Below, in pieces: positions 42,082 through 47,486 of a stretch of DNA of 64,000 nucleotides; position 1 is the stretch's first letter, and each line of letters starts with the position of its first letter. The notes under the pieces were generated by a model. The model was not told the DNA's origin. It saw only the letters and a program-made list of their open reading frames with translations, and did not search any database. Source of the stretch: Flavobacteriales bacterium (lineage in GTDB: Bacteria > Bacteroidota > Bacteroidia > Flavobacteriales_C > GCA-002722245); contig PBEC01000018.1 of the NCBI GenBank assembly GCA_002717515.1, forward strand, positions 19,818 to 83,817, read 5' to 3'. The position numbers and the translations under genes are program-made.

Positions 42082-42576
42082 TCAAGCAGCATCAAGTATG
42101 TCTATGTTTTTATATTTTTTCTTAAACTTATTGGCCGCACGCATTCCTTTAAAGAGATAATAGATAACAATTATTTTAATAATGAGACCATTAATAATAC
42201 TTTCTGGATCTGCAACTGCTGAAAGGCCTGTTAACAGTATATACAAAATTATCCCCGACAGCAAAGCGGCATATGGAACCCTTGTGGCCAACAAACCTAG
42301 ACCTAAGAACATTCCAGCAATAGTACCTTCAATAATTGCTGACAAATTATCTCCATGAGAAAGATAAATGAATAGTGGTATTACATTGAGACCGCCAACT
42401 ATCAGCAATGTGTTCCTTCCAGACTTAATAAATTCTTTTTTTTCTCTTTCCAAGGATTTTTCTTTTCGCTTTTTTACTACACTGGAAAATTTCTCTTTAG
42501 ACACTAATAAGGCTTTACAATACGGACATCTTATAGCTTTTGGGTTGATTTTTTTTGAGCAAGAAGGACAATTCAT
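42082..42576 (-). CDS. Hypothetical zinc-ribbon membrane protein
   Basis: CPSC...CPYC at the N-terminus followed by about 4 TM helices. Confidence 0.75.
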   Translation of the reverse strand: MNCPSCSKKINPKAIRCPYCKALLVSKEKFSSVVKKRKEKSLEREKKEFIKSGRNTLLIVGGLNVIPLFIYLSHGDNLSAIIEGTIAGMFLGLGLLATRVPYAALLSGIILYILLTGLSAVADPESIINGLIIKIIVIYYLFKGMRAANKFKKKYKNIDILDAA

Positions 42577-42612: not shown

Positions 42613-43452
42613 TTATTCAAAATTAATTACTTCTGTCGGGCTCAGAGGAGAGCCTTTAAACCATATTTCAAAATGTAAATGAGGTCCGGTTGTAAATTCA
42701 CCACTATTTCCTACAATAGCAATTACCTCTCCTGCTTTAACAATTGCTCCTTCTTTTTTTAACAAAACAGAATTGTGCTTGTAGATACTGATTAAGTCAT
42801 TACTGTGCTGTATTGCAATAACATGTCCTGTTTCTGCCGTCCATGAAGAAAAAATAACCTTACCGTTTAAAGTGCTTTTTACTCCAGCATTTTTTTCTGC
42901 TACAACATCAATACCATGATGGCCTTCATTTACTTTTAATTCTTTGGATACAATTCCTTCAATTGGTTTAAAAAAGTGAAAATTGGCTAATGATTTTGTT
43001 TCCTCTGCAATAGAAAGATTTATGAATTTATCCGGTAATAAATTACTTTTTCTGTTTTCCAAATTAATTTTTTCAAATGCCATGTTATTTATGGAGTCAA
43101 CAGGAATTCCAAAGTCTTTAAATGTTGAATCTAGTTTTAAGCCGTATTCAATTTTTCCTTGAATTTGCTTTTGAAGTTCAAATAATCTTTTGTTGTTTTC
43201 GATTAAATGTGCCTGAACTGATTCGGATTCATAACCAGGAATTATAAATGATTTTATAGGTGTAAAAGCAATGATGAGATATGTAAATAACACAACAGAG
43301 AAAGTACTTGCAAGAATTAAAAGGATGAGTCTTCCTAATGAAATGTTTCTACTGTAGACTTCTAAAAGCAAATTTTTATTTACTATCGATAAATGATAAC
43401 GAACTTTTAACCGTTGCCAAAAACTTCTTTTTGAGTTTTGATTATTTTTCAT
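42613..43452 (-). CDS. M23 family peptidase
   Basis: HHGID, YKHN and GPHLHFE Zn motifs; TM segment and coiled coil upstream. Confidence 0.92.
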   Translation of the reverse strand: MKNNQNSKRSFWQRLKVRYHLSIVNKNLLLEVYSRNISLGRLILLILASTFSVVLFTYLIIAFTPIKSFIIPGYESESVQAHLIENNKRLFELQKQIQGKIEYGLKLDSTFKDFGIPVDSINNMAFEKINLENRKSNLLPDKFINLSIAEETKSLANFHFFKPIEGIVSKELKVNEGHHGIDVVAEKNAGVKSTLNGKVIFSSWTAETGHVIAIQHSNDLISIYKHNSVLLKKEGAIVKAGEVIAIVGNSGEFTTGPHLHFEIWFKGSPLSPTEVINFE

Positions 43453-43470
43453 TTCTTAATTCGATTCAGC

Positions 43471-43980
43471 TTATTGAAATAGGGATTTTAATTCAACAGC
43501 ATCTTTTGGCGATAGTTTCCCCGCCATTATTAAGTTTAATTGTCGTCTTCTTAGTGCTCCTTCAAAACGTTCTTGTTCTTGTTCAGATTCGGGCACCAAC
43601 TCTGGAACCTCAATAGGTCGACCAATTTGATCAACAGCCACAAAAGTATATATTGCCTCGTTGTGTCTTTTTTTCTTACCAGTGATGTGGTCTTCAACCC
43701 AAACATCCATTACAACCTCCATGCTCGAGGTGAATGCTCGAGAAACTTTGGCTTCTATGGTAACAATATCTCCAAGTTTTATTGGTTTTTGAAATGCAAC
43801 CTTGCCAACGGATGCTGTTACAACAACTCTACGACAGTGCCTGTGAGCACTTATGGCACCAATAACATCCAGCCAATTTAAAAGTTGACCTCCCATTAAA
43901 TTTCCGAGTGTATTTGTATTGTTGGGTAAAACAATATGTGTTGCTGAGGCAAATGTGCTTTTTGCATTAACTGATTTCAT
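43471..43980 (-). CDS. Acyl-CoA thioesterase (hotdog fold, YciA-like)
   Basis: VLPNNTN.LGNL.GG.LL.WLD and VVTASV..V.F..PI..GD. Confidence 0.93.
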   Translation of the reverse strand: MKSVNAKSTFASATHIVLPNNTNTLGNLMGGQLLNWLDVIGAISAHRHCRRVVVTASVGKVAFQKPIKLGDIVTIEAKVSRAFTSSMEVVMDVWVEDHITGKKKRHNEAIYTFVAVDQIGRPIEVPELVPESEQEQERFEGALRRRQLNLIMAGKLSPKDAVELKSLFQ

Positions 43981-44038
43981 GCTTCTAAATTAAGTAATTA
44001 TTCAACGATTCGAATAGAACATTCGCCATTCTCCTATT

Positions 44039-44779
44039 TTAACGCATTCCTTCAAATCGAGTTGATCTATTTATTTTTTTCTTTTTTTTAGGTATTTTTT
44101 TCTTTTTTGGTTTAGAATTATAATTATCGTGCCTCCTAAACGGATTCCATATATTTCGGGATTTCTTTTTGTTTCCGGAATAGTCCTTTTTTTTCGAAGA
44201 ATATGAGTCTTTAAATGTGGAGTTTGATTTTCTCGAATTTGAAGAGCTGTAGGAGTCTTTAAATCTCAGGTTTTGTCTTTTTGAATCCCTGGAGCTGTAG
44301 GAGTCATTGAATCCAAACTTACTTTTTTTTCTTTTTCTTTTACTTCCGTATGAGTCTCGAAAGCCATGTTGTCTTTTTCTTCCACTTTCTCCTCCATACG
44401 AATCTTTGAATCCATGTTGTCTTTTTCTCCCACTTTCTCCTCCATAGGAATCTTTGAATCCATGTTGTCTTTTTCTCCCACCACTACTTCCGCTGTATGA
44501 ATCTCTAAATCTAAATTGATTTCTTCTCCCACCCGATTTTCCGCTGTATGAGTCTCTAAATCCACGTTGGTTTTTTCTTCCGGCAGTGCGTCCGCTATAT
44601 GAATCTCTATATCCTATTTGATTTCTTCTTCCCGGACTTCCTCCGCTGTATGAATCGTTTAATCTCACTTTATATTTTCTACCTCCTGTTTTTCCGCTGT
44701 AGCTATCATGGAACTTGGGTGAGCATCCAAGAAAAAATATAGAATGAACAAAAATAAATATCAAAATTAATTTCTGCAT
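44039..44779 (-). CDS. Basic low-complexity lipoprotein with 11 FxDSY[SG][SG] repeats
   Basis: Signal peptide II ending FLG-C19; 16-17-aa repeats; Lys-rich tail. Confidence 0.8.
   Translation of the reverse strand: MQKLILIFIFVHSIFFLGCSPKFHDSYSGKTGGRKYKVRLNDSYSGGSPGRRNQIGYRDSYSGRTAGRKNQRGFRDSYSGKSGGRRNQFRFRDSYSGSSGGRKRQHGFKDSYGGESGRKRQHGFKDSYGGESGRKRQHGFRDSYGSKRKRKKSKFGFNDSYSSRDSKRQNLRFKDSYSSSNSRKSNSTFKDSYSSKKKDYSGNKKKSRNIWNPFRRHDNYNSKPKKKKIPKKKKKINRSTRFEGMR
44195..44713 (-). repeat. Intragenic tandem repeat (48/51-bp units)
   Basis: CCATGTTGTCTTTTTC recurs at 44364, 44412 and 44460 (48-bp period); flanking units are degenerate. Confidence 0.9.
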
Positions 44780-44833
44780 GTTGGTGAAGTAAATATCTAA
44801 TTTACGATTTCCTTTTAATTTGGTTTTTCTTTG

Positions 44834-44841
44834 TATCTTTG
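44834..44841 (+). promoter_or_regulatory. -7 promoter element upstream of the thr leader peptide
   Basis: TATCTTTG 8 nt upstream of ATG 44850. Confidence 0.7.
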
Positions 44842-44849
44842 TAATTCAA

Positions 44850-44936
44850 ATGAAAAAGGGCAGTATAACATCAACTCAAAAATCAACGATAATTACAATT
44901 ATCGCTACTGCTATTATCACCCCTTTTGGGGCGTAA
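44850..44936 (+). CDS. thrL: Putative thr operon leader peptide, MKKGSITSTQKSTIITIIATAIITPFGA
   Basis: 28 codons, 6 Thr and 7 Ile, ending 117 nt before thrA; missed by the ORF track. Confidence 0.8.
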   Translation: MKKGSITSTQKSTIITIIATAIITPFGA

Positions 44937-45010
44937 ATTTCATATATATAATATCACTCAAATTATTTCTGGTTAAATCGTTATTTAGTCACGACATAAT
45001 TCAATATTTT

Positions 45011-45025
45011 TGCGCCTTCGGCGCA
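45011..45025 (+). other. GC-rich hairpin in the thrA leader
   Basis: TGCGCC-TTC-GGCGCA; its left arm is complementary to the 3' end of the leader ORF (GGGGCGTAAA). Confidence 0.6.
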
Positions 45026-45053
45026 CAGTTCGAAACATTATAAATAAAAAGAA

Positions 45054-47486
45054 ATGAAAGTTTTAAAATTTGGAGGAACATCTGTTGGCACAGCAAATTC
45101 TATCAAAAGAGTTCAAGAAATTATTGCTCATGAAGCAAAAGAAGATAGAGTCATAGTGGTTGTTTCGGCAATGACGCAAGTCACCAATAAACTTTTAGCT
45201 GCCAGTGAATTGGCTGCCAATGGAGACGAATCTTATAAGGAAATTACTAAAGAAATTGAAAATAAGCATTTTGATGCAATTCGTGAATTGGTAGCAATTG
45301 ATCAACAAAGTGGAGTTATAGCGAATATTAAGGTTTTGTTGAATCAGTTGGAGGATATTTTAAATGGTGTCTTTTTAGTTCGTGAATTGTCGCCAAAAAC
45401 CTCGGATTATGTGGTTAGTTTTGGAGAGTCTCTTTCTTCAATTATACTTAGTAAATCTATAGGAGCTGAATTAGTGGACTCAAAATCTTTGATTCGAACA
45501 AATACTCAGCATGGAGGTGCAGCGGTACTTCACGAAACTACCTATGAAAATATAAAAGACTTTTTTCAAAGTAATGATGCAAACGTTTTTGTTGCACCTG
45601 GTTTTGTTGCTTCGACTGAGGAAGGAATTACCTCTACCCTGGGAAGAGGAGGTTCCGATTTTTCTGCAGCACTTTACGCAGCCGGTTCGGATGCTGCTGA
45701 ACTACAGATATGGACGGATGTTAGTGGAATGTATACTGCTGACCCAAGAAAGGTTAAATCTGCATTTCCTGTTAAGTATGCTTCGTATAAAGAAGCAATG
45801 GAACTCTCTCATTTTGGGGCGAAAGTTATTTATCCACCAACCATATTGCCTGTATACAAAAAAGGGATTCCTTTAAAAATAAAAAATACTTTTGCTCCCG
45901 AAGATCAGGGGACTTTAATTACGGCTAGTGCTGATGAAGGAATGCCAATTAAAGGAATTAGTTCGATTGATAAAATTGCTTTAGCCAGTTTAAGTGGTTC
46001 AGGTATGATTGGAATTCCTGGAATATCAGCTCGATTATTTGGGGCTCTTTCAAGAGCAAAAGTTAATGTAATACTAATTACTCAAGCATCATCTGAGCAT
46101 TCCATCTCCTTTGCGATTAGTCCTGAAGATATTAATCTTGCTGTTGAGGCAGTAAAGGAGGAGTTTGTTTTTGAGATTCAAACGGGTAAAATAAACAGTC
46201 CAAGAGTAGAAACGGGATTATCGGTTATAGCATTAGTTGGGGAAAAGATGAGTGGACAGGTTAATGTTAGTGGAAAAATGTTTAATACGCTTGGAAGCAA
46301 TGGAGTAAATATGAGGGCCATTGCTCAAGGATCATCAGAAAGAAATATTTCAGCAGTGATAGAAGAAAAAGATGTAAAAAAAGCACTAAATGTGCTTCAC
46401 GAAAATCATTTCGAAGGATCGAATAAAGTTTTGAATTTATTTGTAGTTGGTGTGGGGAATGTAGGTGGTACTTTGGTTGATCAAATTAAACAACAACAAA
46501 AAGTATTGCAGAAAAATTCAAACATTGTAGTTCGTGTCACTGGATTAGCGAATTCGAAAAAAATGTTGTTGAATTCAGAGGGAATTGATCTTAACGGATG
46601 GCAAGATCAAGTAGAGTCTTCATCAGTGATTTTTCATAAAGACGAGTTAATTGAGCAAATAGCTGAATTAAATTTGAGAAATTCTGTTTTTGTTGATTGT
46701 ACCGCAAATTATGAAATTGCATCGGTATATAAAAAGGCGTTGGAAAATAATATTAATGTTGTCACAGCGAATAAAATTGCATGTTCTTCTGATTACGAAT
46801 TGTATCAAGAACTTAAAGCAATATGCTTAAAAAATAACGTTAAGTTTTTATACGAGACTAATGTTGGCGCAGGTCTTCCTGTAATTGGTACCATTAATGA
46901 CTTGGTTCACTCTGGAGATAGAATTCAAAAGATTGAAGCTACGGTATCGGGGTCTTTAAATTTTATTTTTAATACATACGATGGAAACAATACTTTTCAT
47001 GATGTTGTATCGCAAGCAAAAAGTGAAGGTTATACAGAACCAGATCCACGAATAGATTTGTCGGGAGTAGATGTTAAACGAAAAATATTAATTCTGATAC
47101 GTGAGGCTGGAATTAAAATGGAATTTGATGATATAGAAGTTAAAGATATTCTTCCTAAGGCTTGTTTTGAGGTAGATAGCGTAGAAGACTTCTTTAATTT
47201 GTTAAAGAATGATGAACCAACTTTCCAAGAAATGGTTGGAAATGCGCAGTCTGAAGGTAGAAAATTAAGGGTTATTGCCAAGTACGAGGATGGAAAGGCA
47301 ACTGTTGAACTTCAAGCTGTTGATTCAACTCATCCATTTTACAACTTGCAGGGAACAGATAATACAGTAGCTCTTTATACGGATAGGTATGTTTCTCAAC
47401 CTATGGTAATTCAAGGAGCGGGAGCAGGAGCAGGAGTTACAGCAGCAGGAGTTTTTGCGGACATTGTAAGAATTGCTAATTATTAA
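45054..47486 (+). CDS. thrA: Bifunctional aspartokinase / homoserine dehydrogenase I
   Basis: KFGGTSV, TLGRGGSD, WTDV, two ACT domains, G.G.VG, ETNVGAGLP and GYTEPDPR.DLSG. Confidence 0.97.
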   Translation: MKVLKFGGTSVGTANSIKRVQEIIAHEAKEDRVIVVVSAMTQVTNKLLAASELAANGDESYKEITKEIENKHFDAIRELVAIDQQSGVIANIKVLLNQLEDILNGVFLVRELSPKTSDYVVSFGESLSSIILSKSIGAELVDSKSLIRTNTQHGGAAVLHETTYENIKDFFQSNDANVFVAPGFVASTEEGITSTLGRGGSDFSAALYAAGSDAAELQIWTDVSGMYTADPRKVKSAFPVKYASYKEAMELSHFGAKVIYPPTILPVYKKGIPLKIKNTFAPEDQGTLITASADEGMPIKGISSIDKIALASLSGSGMIGIPGISARLFGALSRAKVNVILITQASSEHSISFAISPEDINLAVEAVKEEFVFEIQTGKINSPRVETGLSVIALVGEKMSGQVNVSGKMFNTLGSNGVNMRAIAQGSSERNISAVIEEKDVKKALNVLHENHFEGSNKVLNLFVVGVGNVGGTLVDQIKQQQKVLQKNSNIVVRVTGLANSKKMLLNSEGIDLNGWQDQVESSSVIFHKDELIEQIAELNLRNSVFVDCTANYEIASVYKKALENNINVVTANKIACSSDYELYQELKAICLKNNVKFLYETNVGAGLPVIGTINDLVHSGDRIQKIEATVSGSLNFIFNTYDGNNTFHDVVSQAKSEGYTEPDPRIDLSGVDVKRKILILIREAGIKMEFDDIEVKDILPKACFEVDSVEDFFNLLKNDEPTFQEMVGNAQSEGRKLRVIAKYEDGKATVELQAVDSTHPFYNLQGTDNTVALYTDRYVSQPMVIQGAGAGAGVTAAGVFADIVRIANY

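What the first reader, a model, noticed from the sequence alone, without database searches (positions are those of the whole stretch)
44039..44779. Highly cationic, probably disordered lipoprotein built from 11 FxDSY[S/G][S/G] repeats
After the lipobox Cys19 come repeats such as FRDSYSGKSGGRRNQ and FKDSYGGESGRKRQHG (twice), ending in KPKKKKIPKKKKK. My count is 68 K+R versus 17 D+E. Regularly spaced Tyr/Phe with Gly/Ser/Arg spacers resemble sticker-spacer condensate or functional-amyloid proteins. The basic GRK/GRR/KR spacers could instead be processing sites that release near-identical cationic peptides. Exporting such a polyanion-binding protein (eDNA, LPS, polyphosphate, silica) is unusual. 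Near-identical 48-bp units indicate recent expansion. All functional ideas are inference; I recognise no family.
Basis: partly seen in the sequence, partly recalled or inferred. Interest (0 to 1): 0.75.

Follow-up and report, generated by a model that had tools for sequence, protein, structure and literature searches.

The report
Polycationic disordered tandem-repeat lipoprotein, new family
This is a real gene from an uncultured marine Flavobacteriales bacterium that encodes a small, very basic, unstructured lipoprotein built from 11-12 F-K/R-D-S-Y repeats; it belongs to a rare, unnamed family whose function can only be inferred.

Summary
Window 44039-44779 (minus strand) encodes a 246-aa protein. 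It has a lipoprotein-type signal ending at Cys19, 11 DSY motifs spaced 16-17 residues apart plus a degenerate twelfth, K+R 69 against D+E 17, and a polybasic tail.

It is a real gene. dN/dS is 0.12-0.15 against orthologues. About 25 relatives exist, almost all from uncultured marine Flavobacteriales. All keep the Cys, the [KR]-D-S-[YF] units (5-13 copies) and, in the core family, the tail IPKKKKKxxR[ST]T[KR]FEG.

AlphaFold gives no structure beyond the signal helix. Pfam, NCBIfam, PADLOC and PDB give no match, and every source name is "hypothetical protein".

Most units are old positional orthologues. Only one 48-bp pair is a recent duplication. Gene neighbourhood differs between clades, so context gives no function.

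My best inference is an outer-membrane lipoprotein facing the periplasm (no surface-export signal) that binds anionic envelope material through many weak charge and aromatic contacts. Rivals are an O-glycosylated mucin-like protein (weakened, because Tyr is not a documented third residue of the Bacteroidota sequon), a surface polyanion binder, a cytoplasmic tail and a peptide precursor.

It is new as a family and moderately interesting. Function is untested.

The parts
44039..44779 (-). Complete CDS, 246 aa plus stop, of the DSY-repeat lipoprotein
   Evidence: ORF list. Translation and composition. dN/dS 0.12-0.15 against orthologues in L007 and L008.
44723..44779 (-). Type II (lipoprotein) signal peptide, aa 1-19: n-region MQK, uncharged 15-residue h-region, lipobox F-L-G-C with Cys19 (codon 44723-44725)
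   Evidence: Cys is invariant in alignments A1 and A3. A PROSITE-like lipoprotein rule is met in 14 of 16 members. It is the only helix in the AF2 model, residues 2-17, with pLDDT 80-91.
44168..44713 (-). Array of 11 units of 16-17 aa (aa 23-204). Consensus: F-[KR]-D-S-Y-[GS]-[GS]-x2-3-G-R-[KR]-x-Q-x-G
   Evidence: Unit table. Motif statistics over 139 units in 16 proteins. TRF periods of 48, 51 and 102 bp. pLDDT about 41 and no secondary structure.
44363..44458 (-). Units 6 and 7 (aa 108-139): two identical FKDSYGGESGRKRQHG peptides, the only recent duplication
   Evidence: 94% DNA identity between the two units. TRF array 44364-44481 at 97%. Both units match the single unit 7 of L007 at 94%.
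44114..44134 (-). Degenerate twelfth unit, RHDNYNS (aa 216-222)
   Evidence: Aligns with KRDSYNS of L007 and L008.
44042..44107 (-). Conserved polybasic C-terminal tail, KKKKIPKKKKKINRSTRFEGMR (aa 225-246)
   Evidence: I229-P-K5, R238, T240 and F242-E-G are invariant in alignment A2. pLDDT is 75-79 here, the only confident stretch outside the signal peptide.

Best explanation
What it is (well supported). This is a genuine protein-coding gene for a small lipoprotein restricted to a few lineages of uncultured marine Flavobacteriales. After a type II signal peptide and the lipid-accepting Cys19, the whole mature chain of 227 residues is intrinsically disordered. It is a strong polycation: net charge about +51, 30% K+R. 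It holds 11-12 diverged units of 16-17 aa. Each unit carries an aromatic/basic/acidic 'sticker', F-[KR]-D-S-Y, followed by a Gly/Ser spacer that ends in a G-R-[KR] cluster. The chain finishes with a polybasic tail, IPKKKKK-x2-R-S-T-[KR]-F-E-G, that is conserved across the family.

How it most likely works (inferred, not shown). The protein is lipidated and, because it lacks the acidic Bacteroidota lipoprotein export signal, stays on the periplasmic face of the outer membrane. There the flexible polycationic chain would bind anionic envelope material, such as peptidoglycan, anionic lipids, polyphosphate or acidic glycans. Binding would rest on many weak charge contacts and Tyr/Phe contacts. The repeat number (5-13 in the family) would set valency and reach. 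The conserved C-terminal tail would be the most specific contact point. In effect it would act as an envelope tether or 'glue', and could form a complex coacervate with its polyanion.
For: Real gene: dN/dS is 0.12-0.15 against L007 and L008, and L007 vs L008 has an unsaturated dS of 0.46.

Family: 16 proteins came from word-indexed searches. The exhaustive HMM search gave 28 hits at E<=1e-3, 12 of them at E<=1e-10, among 1.84 billion cluster representatives. Four species genomes matched, all Flavobacteriales MAGs, plus 2 metagenome contigs.

Lipoprotein signal: Cys is invariant. A K/R n-region, a 12-17-residue uncharged h-region and a small residue at -1 are present.

Disorder: two AF2 runs gave mean pLDDT of 51 and 49, with 35-45 over the repeats and no secondary structure beyond the signal helix.

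Selected sticker: over 139 units D is kept in 137, S in 117, Y or F in 138, K/R at -1 in 121 and an aromatic at -2 in 105.

Polyelectrolyte parameters: f+ 0.30, f- 0.075, NCPR +0.22, kappa about 0.27.

No export signal: residues +2..+6 are SPKFH, QPQFK, ASGRK and similar, with no acidic pair. The published signals are C-X-K-(D/E)2, SDDDD and SDDFE (PMC5080379).

Tail: invariant in A2 and relatively confident in AF2.

Repeat number varies among close relatives: 10, 12, 12 and 13.
Against: No experiment or expression data were available. Lipidation, location and ligand are all inferred.

The early mature region is net positive, +1 to +4 in the first 18 residues. In E. coli this hampers Sec export (my own knowledge of Kajava et al. 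2000, not checked here).

Pure charge binding does not explain why one Asp and one Ser are kept in nearly every unit.

Gene context is not conserved. It is thrABC/4HBT/M23 in one clade and M28/aldehyde dehydrogenase in another, while distant relatives sit next to ferritin. No partner or pathway is therefore indicated.

The export-signal rule was established in Capnocytophaga, Bacteroides and Flavobacterium, not in these lineages.
Confidence: 0.35

Rival explanations
1. Mucin-like O-glycosylated lipoprotein. Each D-S-[Y/F] would be a sequon of the phylum-wide Bacteroidota protein O-glycosylation system, so the mature protein would carry 5-13 glycans on a basic disordered stalk.
For: The published motif is D-(S/T)-(A/I/L/V/M/T), extended to S/C/G/F, on extracytoplasmic proteins, many of them lipoproteins (PMC8550257; PMC8729774; PMC12871550). 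In this family D is almost never replaced by E (137 D vs 2 E). S exchanges with T (117 S, 6 T), as expected for a sequon. DS[+338]F is directly localised in T. forsythia.
Against: The third residue is Tyr in 115 of 139 units. Tyr is not among the residues reported after glycosylated Ser/Thr: L/I/V/T/A/S make up about 90%, M/F/C/G about 2% each, and N/E/Q/P/D under 1%. In the T. forsythia tables DSY and DTY occur only in peptides that also carry a canonical sequon. None of the 16 proteins has a single canonical D[ST][AILVMT], and the third position never drifts to an aliphatic residue. So the aromatic itself is under selection. Ala replaces Ser in 5 units.
Confidence: 0.15
2. Surface-exposed or vesicle-borne polyanion binder or adhesin. 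The same chain would be displayed outside the cell. There it would capture dissolved DNA or acidic and sulfated algal polysaccharides, or stick to particles through Lys/Arg and Tyr as mussel foot proteins do.
For: The composition (K/R, G, S, Y) resembles adhesive and nucleic-acid-binding low-complexity proteins. The hosts are pelagic marine Flavobacteriales. Repeat number varies between relatives, as in surface repeat proteins.
Against: No lipoprotein export signal follows the Cys (PMC5080379). There is no T9SS C-terminal domain. There is no link to polysaccharide-utilisation or nuclease genes in any context.
Confidence: 0.15
3. Signal-anchor protein with a cytoplasmic basic tail. The hydrophobic N-terminus would insert N-out/C-in, following the positive-inside rule, and the polycation would bind nucleic acid, ribosomes or polyphosphate inside the cell.
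For: There are 68 K+R after the hydrophobic segment against one K before it. The first 18 mature residues carry a net positive charge in all 16 members. The composition resembles RGG/RS-like RNA-binding tails.
Against: The hydrophobic run is only 12-17 residues, which is signal-peptide length. It is always closed by a small residue followed by an invariant Cys, the sole Cys of the protein. A plain membrane anchor would not explain that.
Confidence: 0.1
4. Polyprotein precursor. Basic GRK/GRR/KR sites would be cut to release near-identical cationic peptides.
For: A conserved short 'core' alternates with basic clusters. The gene overlaps an M28 peptidase gene in one clade and lies two genes upstream of an M23 peptidase in the other.
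Against: No maturase or dedicated protease is conserved across clades. The 4HBT-M23 pair exists without this gene in a lineage whose thioesterase is 86% identical. Units are not near-identical: DNA identity is 31-77%, and each unit is conserved as a positional orthologue. The lipid anchor and the conserved C-terminal tail point to a function for the intact chain. PADLOC, Pfam and NCBIfam give nothing.
Confidence: 0.04
5. Not a gene: a chance ORF across a DNA tandem repeat.
For: Repeats keep several frames open. There is a 99-aa ORF in another frame and short ORFs on the opposite strand.
Against: dN/dS is 0.12-0.15 in this frame with synonymous sites near saturation. The signal peptide and tail lie outside the repeats and are conserved. 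The gene keeps the same slot in at least 9 loci.
Confidence: 0.01

Closest known systems
Tandem-repeat lipoproteins (Neisseria Lip/H.8 antigen built of AAEAP pentapeptides; Mycoplasma Vlp/Vsa size-variable lipoproteins)
   Same: A lipoprotein signal is followed by a mature part made almost wholly of short tandem repeats. Repeat number differs between relatives. (H.8: PMC2188499 and PMC5542605. Vlp/Vsa: my own knowledge.)
   Different: There is no sequence similarity. H.8 is Ala/Pro-rich and not basic. The units here are old and diverged, not near-identical slippage-prone copies. No surface-export signal is present.
Bacteroidota general O-glycosylation sequon D-(S/T)-(A/I/L/V/M/T; rarely S/C/G/F)
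   Same: D-S is kept in nearly every unit, E does not replace D, and T sometimes replaces S. The protein is predicted to be extracytoplasmic in a Bacteroidota host.
   Different: The third residue is Tyr in 83% of units and is never aliphatic. Tyr is not a documented third residue.
Sticker-and-spacer low-complexity regions of eukaryotic RNA-binding proteins (RGG/SY-rich tails), diatom silaffins and mussel foot proteins
   Same: Regularly spaced Tyr/Phe in Gly/Ser/Arg/Lys-rich disordered sequence, with a strong positive charge. The expected behaviour is multivalent binding of polyanions. (Resemblance recalled from memory and by composition only.)
   Different: This is a bacterial, lipid-anchored and exported protein. 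There is no homology; the only Pfam hit is a chance-level E=0.18. Net charge +51 makes self-association without a polyanion unlikely.
Envelope-spanning lipoproteins that act through flexible or extended regions (Lpp, LpoA/LpoB of Proteobacteria)
   Same: An outer-membrane lipid anchor sits at one end, the functional contact at the other, and the length of the linker matters (my own knowledge).
   Different: Lpp is a helical coiled coil cross-linked to peptidoglycan through its C-terminal Lys. Here the chain is disordered and the last residue is not conserved as Lys (R in the window, L in another clade). No folded domain like that of LpoB is present.

Membership tests
Bacterial lipoprotein (Lgt/LspA substrate) | Basic n-region followed by a short uncharged h-region | tested here: met
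   K/R lies within the first 7 residues in 14 of 16 members; the other two have a likely internal start. The h-region is 12-17 residues.
Bacterial lipoprotein (Lgt/LspA substrate) | Lipobox with a small residue at -1 and Cys at +1, at position 15-35 | tested here: met
   Cys is invariant in A1 and A3. A PROSITE PS51257-like rule, written from memory, matches the window protein and 14 of 16 members.
Bacterial lipoprotein (Lgt/LspA substrate) | Acylation and signal peptidase II cleavage actually occur | not testable with these tools
   Needs globomycin or palmitate labelling. The net positive early mature region (+1 to +4) is a caveat.
Bacteroidota surface-exposed lipoprotein | Lipoprotein export signal: a polar or basic residue followed by two or more acidic residues at +2..+6 (C-X-K-(D/E)2, SDDDD, SDDFE; PMC5080379) | tested here: not met
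   Residues +2..+6 are SPKFH, QPQFK, NPSFK, SSALK, ASGRK and similar. The first acidic residue is a single Asp at +6 or +7.
Bacteroidota O-glycoprotein (general O-glycosylation system) | Asp immediately before the modified Ser/Thr | tested here: met
   D in 137 of 139 units; S or T in 123 of 139.
Bacteroidota O-glycoprotein (general O-glycosylation system) | Third residue A/I/L/V/M/T (extended list: S/C/G/F) | tested here: not met
   Tyr in 115 of 139 units; Phe, which is on the extended list, in 23 of 139. No member has any D[ST][AILVMT]. Tyr is not listed in the reanalysis of five glycoproteomes.
Bacteroidota O-glycoprotein (general O-glycosylation system) | Glycan attached in vivo | not testable with these tools
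   Needs glycoproteomics with a non-tryptic protease.
Size-variable tandem-repeat lipoproteins (Neisseria Lip/H.8, Mycoplasma Vlp/Vsa) | Lipoprotein signal plus a mature region made of short tandem repeats | tested here: met
Size-variable tandem-repeat lipoproteins (Neisseria Lip/H.8, Mycoplasma Vlp/Vsa) | Sequence relationship to those proteins, or near-identical repeats that give frequent size switching | tested here: not met
   No Pfam, NCBIfam or PDB match. Units are 31-77% identical at DNA level apart from one pair at 94%.
Multi-core ribosomal peptide precursor | Conserved neighbouring maturase or protease genes | tested here: not met
   Three unrelated contexts. The 4HBT-M23 pair occurs without the gene.
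Intrinsically disordered sticker-spacer polyelectrolyte (a functional analogy, not a homology family) | No stable fold; regularly spaced aromatic residues; high net charge | tested here: met
   AF2 pLDDT is 35-45 over the repeats in two runs. Aromatic residues sit at -2 and +2 of each unit. NCPR is +0.22.
Intrinsically disordered sticker-spacer polyelectrolyte (a functional analogy, not a homology family) | Phase separation or complex coacervation with a polyanion | not testable with these tools
   Needs purified protein.

The most novel reading that the evidence does not exclude
The family is a new class of exported, lipid-anchored polycationic sticker-spacer proteins. They would form a complex coacervate or gel with an anionic envelope polymer, giving a membrane-tethered condensate in the periplasm or on the surface of marine Flavobacteriales. 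F-[KR]-D-S-Y would be the sticker, and repeat number would tune the material properties.
Probability: 0.12. Interest if true: 0.75.

Novelty: new variant of a known kind. Interest (0 to 1): 0.4.

Why it matters
If the inferred mechanism is right, this would be one of very few examples of a fully disordered, strongly cationic protein that a Gram-negative bacterium deliberately exports and anchors in its envelope. It would be a tractable case for asking how such a chain crosses the Sec system and what charge-driven, unstructured proteins do in the periplasm. It also bears on the limits of the Bacteroidota O-glycosylation sequon: is D-S-Tyr modified or not? In practical terms, it defines an unannotated family (signal + Cys, [KR]-D-S-[YF] units, IPKKKKK..TKFEG tail) that could be given a profile model. 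As it stands it is a well-defined "hypothetical protein" family of narrow distribution, with no functional evidence.

Tried and rejected
- **Profile libraries.** Pfam, NCBIfam, PADLOC and PDB profile searches on the protein and on the 17-member alignment gave nothing. The only hits were at chance level: ZCCHC3 at E=0.18 and a hemolysin at E=0.36.
- **Genome scan with A1.** It failed for lack of a conserved stretch. The narrower alignment A2 worked.
- **Metagenome scan.** It added only 2 loci.
- **Gene-context inference.** Three thioesterase lineages were examined. The 4HBT-M23(-UPF0093) cluster is independent of the lipoprotein, so the M23 link was dropped.
- **Paralogues in the window.** None found.
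- **Rfam and terminator/promoter scans around the gene.** No RNA family, no terminator, and promoter-like sites at the chance level.
- **Second AF2 run.** It used a homologue carrying the extra KKWW module, to look for a folded element. The model was still disordered.
- **F. johnsoniae O-glycoproteome paper (PMC10294664).** Not held in the library.
- **Contingency-locus or phase-variation reading.** Rejected because the units are diverged positional orthologues.
- **Amyloid reading.** Rejected on charge and the absence of any predicted strand.

Full report
**1. Observation**

The ORF at window 44039..44779 lies on the minus strand and encodes 246 residues. It starts with MQKLILIFIFVHSIFFLGC.

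DSY occurs 11 times, at residues 25, 42, 59, 76, 93, 110, 126, 142, 159, 175 and 191. The spacings are 16-17 residues. In 100000 shuffles of the mature sequence the largest DSY count was 3.

K+R is 69 (68 in the mature part) and D+E is 17. The mature chain has f+ 0.30, f- 0.075, net charge per residue +0.22, kappa about 0.27 and mean hydropathy -1.9.

Tandem Repeats Finder reports a 48-bp unit (2.5 copies, 97% matches, 44364-44481) and looser 51-bp and 102-bp periodicities.

- Only 9 of 11 units start with F.
- There is a degenerate twelfth unit, RHDNYNS.
- The Lys-rich stretch is followed by INRSTRFEGMR.

**2. It is a real gene**

Codon alignments with orthologues give dN/dS of 0.149 (vs L007), 0.128 (vs L008) and 0.121 (L007 vs L008, with dS 0.46, not saturated). 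The other open frames across the repeat are therefore by-products. Gene G+C (35%) matches the window (33.7%).

**3. Relatives**

- A single-sequence search of 5.8 billion proteins found 10 relatives. The profile search found 16.
- An exhaustive HMMER search of 1.84 billion cluster representatives found only 28 at E<=1e-3 and 12 at E<=1e-10.
- A scan of one genome per species found four loci, all Flavobacteriales MAGs from sea water: SP2976, LRMED-117, FRAM18_bin212 and one more. The closest is 67% identical.
- A metagenome scan added two more loci.
- All names given by sources are "hypothetical protein", and the window's exact protein is not in the collection.
- The word-indexed searches miss members. 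The L007, L008 and L013 orthologues were reached only through DNA or neighbour look-ups. The family is therefore rare, but somewhat larger than the counts suggest.

**4. Family anatomy**

*Signal.* Every member has a K/R-containing n-region, an uncharged run of 12-17 residues and a small residue followed by Cys. Cys is an invariant column. A PROSITE-like lipoprotein rule, recalled from memory, is met by 14 of 16 members.

*Repeat units.* Counts over 139 units in 16 proteins:

| Position | Residues |
|---|---|
| -2 | aromatic in 105 (F 89) |
| -1 | K/R in 121 |
| 0 | D in 137, E in 2 |
| +1 | S 117, T 6, A 5 |
| +2 | Y 115, F 23 |
| +3, +4 | G or S |

Unit number ranges from 5 to 13.

*Tail.* The core family ends in IPKKKKK[VI]xR[ST]T[KR]FEG[AM][KR], which is invariant in A2. 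More distant small lipoproteins with DSYS units end in other polybasic tails, such as KRKPPQGIKAS, KKRKPQLGLFHS and KKKKKSALFR.

*Extra module.* Most core members carry RGYKDPxKKWW...GKxxRQG before the tail. The window's clade (window, L007, L008, L011, L013) lacks it.

**5. Repeat history**

Window units are colinear with those of L007. The best match is usually the unit at the same rank, at 50-94% identity. Within the window, units are 31-77% identical at DNA level.

The exception is units 6 and 7, which are 94% identical to each other. Both match the single L007 unit 7. That is one recent duplication on an old array.

Close relatives differ by whole units (10, 12, 12, 13). Two near-identical sequences, L008 and L013, differ by a 4-residue in-frame indel.

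**6. Structure**

AF2 with the 17-sequence alignment gave mean pLDDT 51 and pTM 0.15. The only helix is residues 2-17. The repeats score 40-45 and the tail 75-79, without secondary structure. A second run on P0001, which has the KKWW module, gave pLDDT 49 and only a 4-residue helical turn. I read this as intrinsic disorder.

**7. Context**

- In the window the gene is divergent from thrABC. It is followed on its own strand by a YciA-like 4HBT thioesterase (58 bp downstream), an M23 peptidase and a zinc-ribbon membrane protein. No terminator-like site was found in 43400-45200, the stretch that covers the gene, the thioesterase gene and the start of the M23 gene.
- The same slot is used in L001, L004-L006, L007-L009, L013 and L014.
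- A second clade (P0009, P0010) has the gene overlapping the end of an M28 peptidase gene and convergent with an aldehyde dehydrogenase.
- Distant DSYS lipoproteins follow a ferritin-family gene in four contigs.
- A lineage whose thioesterase is 86% identical keeps 4HBT-M23-UPF0093 but has arginine-biosynthesis genes and DUF2196 upstream instead of the lipoprotein.

Context therefore gives no consistent functional partner.

**8. Mechanism**

*Shown:* coding, family, signal architecture, disorder and charge.

*Inferred, location.* The published Bacteroidota lipoprotein export signal needs acidic residues at +3..+6: C-X-K-(D/E)2, SDDDD or SDDFE (PMC5080379). This family has SPKFH, ASGRK and similar. 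The default location is therefore the periplasmic face of the outer membrane.

*Inferred, action.* A chain with net charge +51 should be an expanded polyelectrolyte that does not self-associate but binds polyanions (my own knowledge of polyampholyte behaviour). Regularly spaced aromatic residues add short-range contacts. The conserved tail is the best candidate for a specific contact. From this follows the tether or "glue" model, at confidence 0.35.

*Unexplained.* The model does not account for the strict Asp-Ser.

**9. O-glycosylation rival**

D-(S/T)-x is the Bacteroidota sequon. The D/E and S/T patterns fit it. However, Tyr is not among the reported third residues. In T. forsythia tables, DSY and DTY occur only beside a canonical sequon, whereas DS[+338]F is localised directly. 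The third position in this family never becomes aliphatic: there are no D[ST][AILVMT] motifs in 16 proteins. I give this rival 0.15.

**10. Other rivals**

- **Surface polyanion binder or adhesin (0.15).** Same chemistry, but it lacks the export signal.
- **Cytoplasmic tail on a signal anchor (0.10).** The positive-inside rule and the +1..+4 early mature charge favour it. The short h-region and the invariant lipobox Cys argue against it.
- **Peptide precursor (0.04).** No conserved maturase, diverged units, and conserved termini.
- **Artefact (0.01).** Refuted.

**11. Comparison with known systems**

As a kind it is closest to tandem-repeat lipoproteins: Neisseria H.8/Lip and Mycoplasma Vlp/Vsa (my own knowledge). 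It shares no sequence similarity with them and has very different chemistry.

It resembles RGG/SY-rich low-complexity tails, silaffins and mussel foot proteins only in composition. It is not a member of any described family.

I rate it a new variant of a known kind, with interest 0.4. It is a clean, unannotated and physically unusual family, but narrow in distribution and without functional data.

**12. Seen in passing**

The 274-bp region between this gene and thrA holds a 28-codon plus-strand ORF at 44850-44936, MKKGSITSTQKSTIITIIATAIITPFGA. Thr/Ile-rich counterparts ending in AIITPFG[AV] occur in all eight related loci checked. It looks like a thr-operon leader peptide and has no Rfam match.

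Noticed in passing
window 44850-44936 (+), between the lipoprotein gene and thrA (45054): A 28-codon ORF, MKKGSITSTQKSTIITIIATAIITPFGA (7 Thr, 8 Ile). Conserved counterparts ending in AIITPFG[AV] occur upstream of thrA in L001, L004, L007-L011 and L013. It is probably a thr-operon leader peptide for attenuation. It explains why the intergenic DNA is more conserved than synonymous sites of the neighbouring gene. There is no Rfam match.
   Followed up: partly
window 44919-44932 and 45010-45025 (+): A CCCCUUUUGGGG hairpin overlaps the last codons of the leader ORF. A G+C-rich hairpin, UGCGCCUUCGGCGCA, lies 30 nt before the thrA start. The 209-nt leader folds with z = -2.5. No U-run follows the second hairpin, so the attenuator or terminator assignment is open.
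   Followed up: partly
window 44834-44841 (+): TATCTTTG matches the Bacteroidota -7 promoter box TAnnTTTG (recalled from memory), only about 9 nt before the leader ORF start. The two divergent start codons are just 70 bp apart, so the lipoprotein promoter must overlap the thr leader region.
   Followed up: no
L019 4422-5324, L020 3054-3956, L021 106-1011, L022 19-846: Distant small DSYS-repeat lipoproteins (P0014, P0015; 107-117 aa) sit 30-57 bp downstream of a ferritin-family (PF00210) gene in four contigs with otherwise different neighbours. This is a possible iron or Dps link for that subgroup only.
   Followed up: no
L002 7054-8624 and L003 7073-8678: In the P0009/P0010 clade the lipoprotein gene overlaps the 3' end of an M28 peptidase gene by 4 and 26 nt, which suggests translational coupling.
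   Followed up: no
L015 and L016, 3696-5901: A lineage whose thioesterase is 86% identical to the window's keeps 4HBT-M23-UPF0093 but has argG/argC/aminotransferase and DUF2196 upstream, with no DSY lipoprotein at that position.
   Followed up: partly
L014 452-2885 (contig JBJKXR010000029.1): thrA is called as two genes (253 aa and 547 aa) in this MAG but as one 810-aa gene in the near-identical L013. This is a likely frameshift or assembly error.
   Followed up: no
L008 vs L013, repeat unit 5: Two nearly identical orthologues differ by an in-frame 4-residue deletion inside one unit: YKDTYSGRTGGRRNQMR vs YKDTYSGRRNQMR. This is small-scale length polymorphism within a population.
   Followed up: no
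window 42082-42576 (-): A 164-aa protein with an N-terminal zinc ribbon (CPSC..CPYC) and C-terminal membrane segments lies between the M23 peptidase and the CitMHS transporter. L001 and L004 have a UPF0093 (HemJ-like) gene directly after M23, followed by a 166-169-aa gene with no Pfam hit. L013 has nothing there.
   Followed up: no
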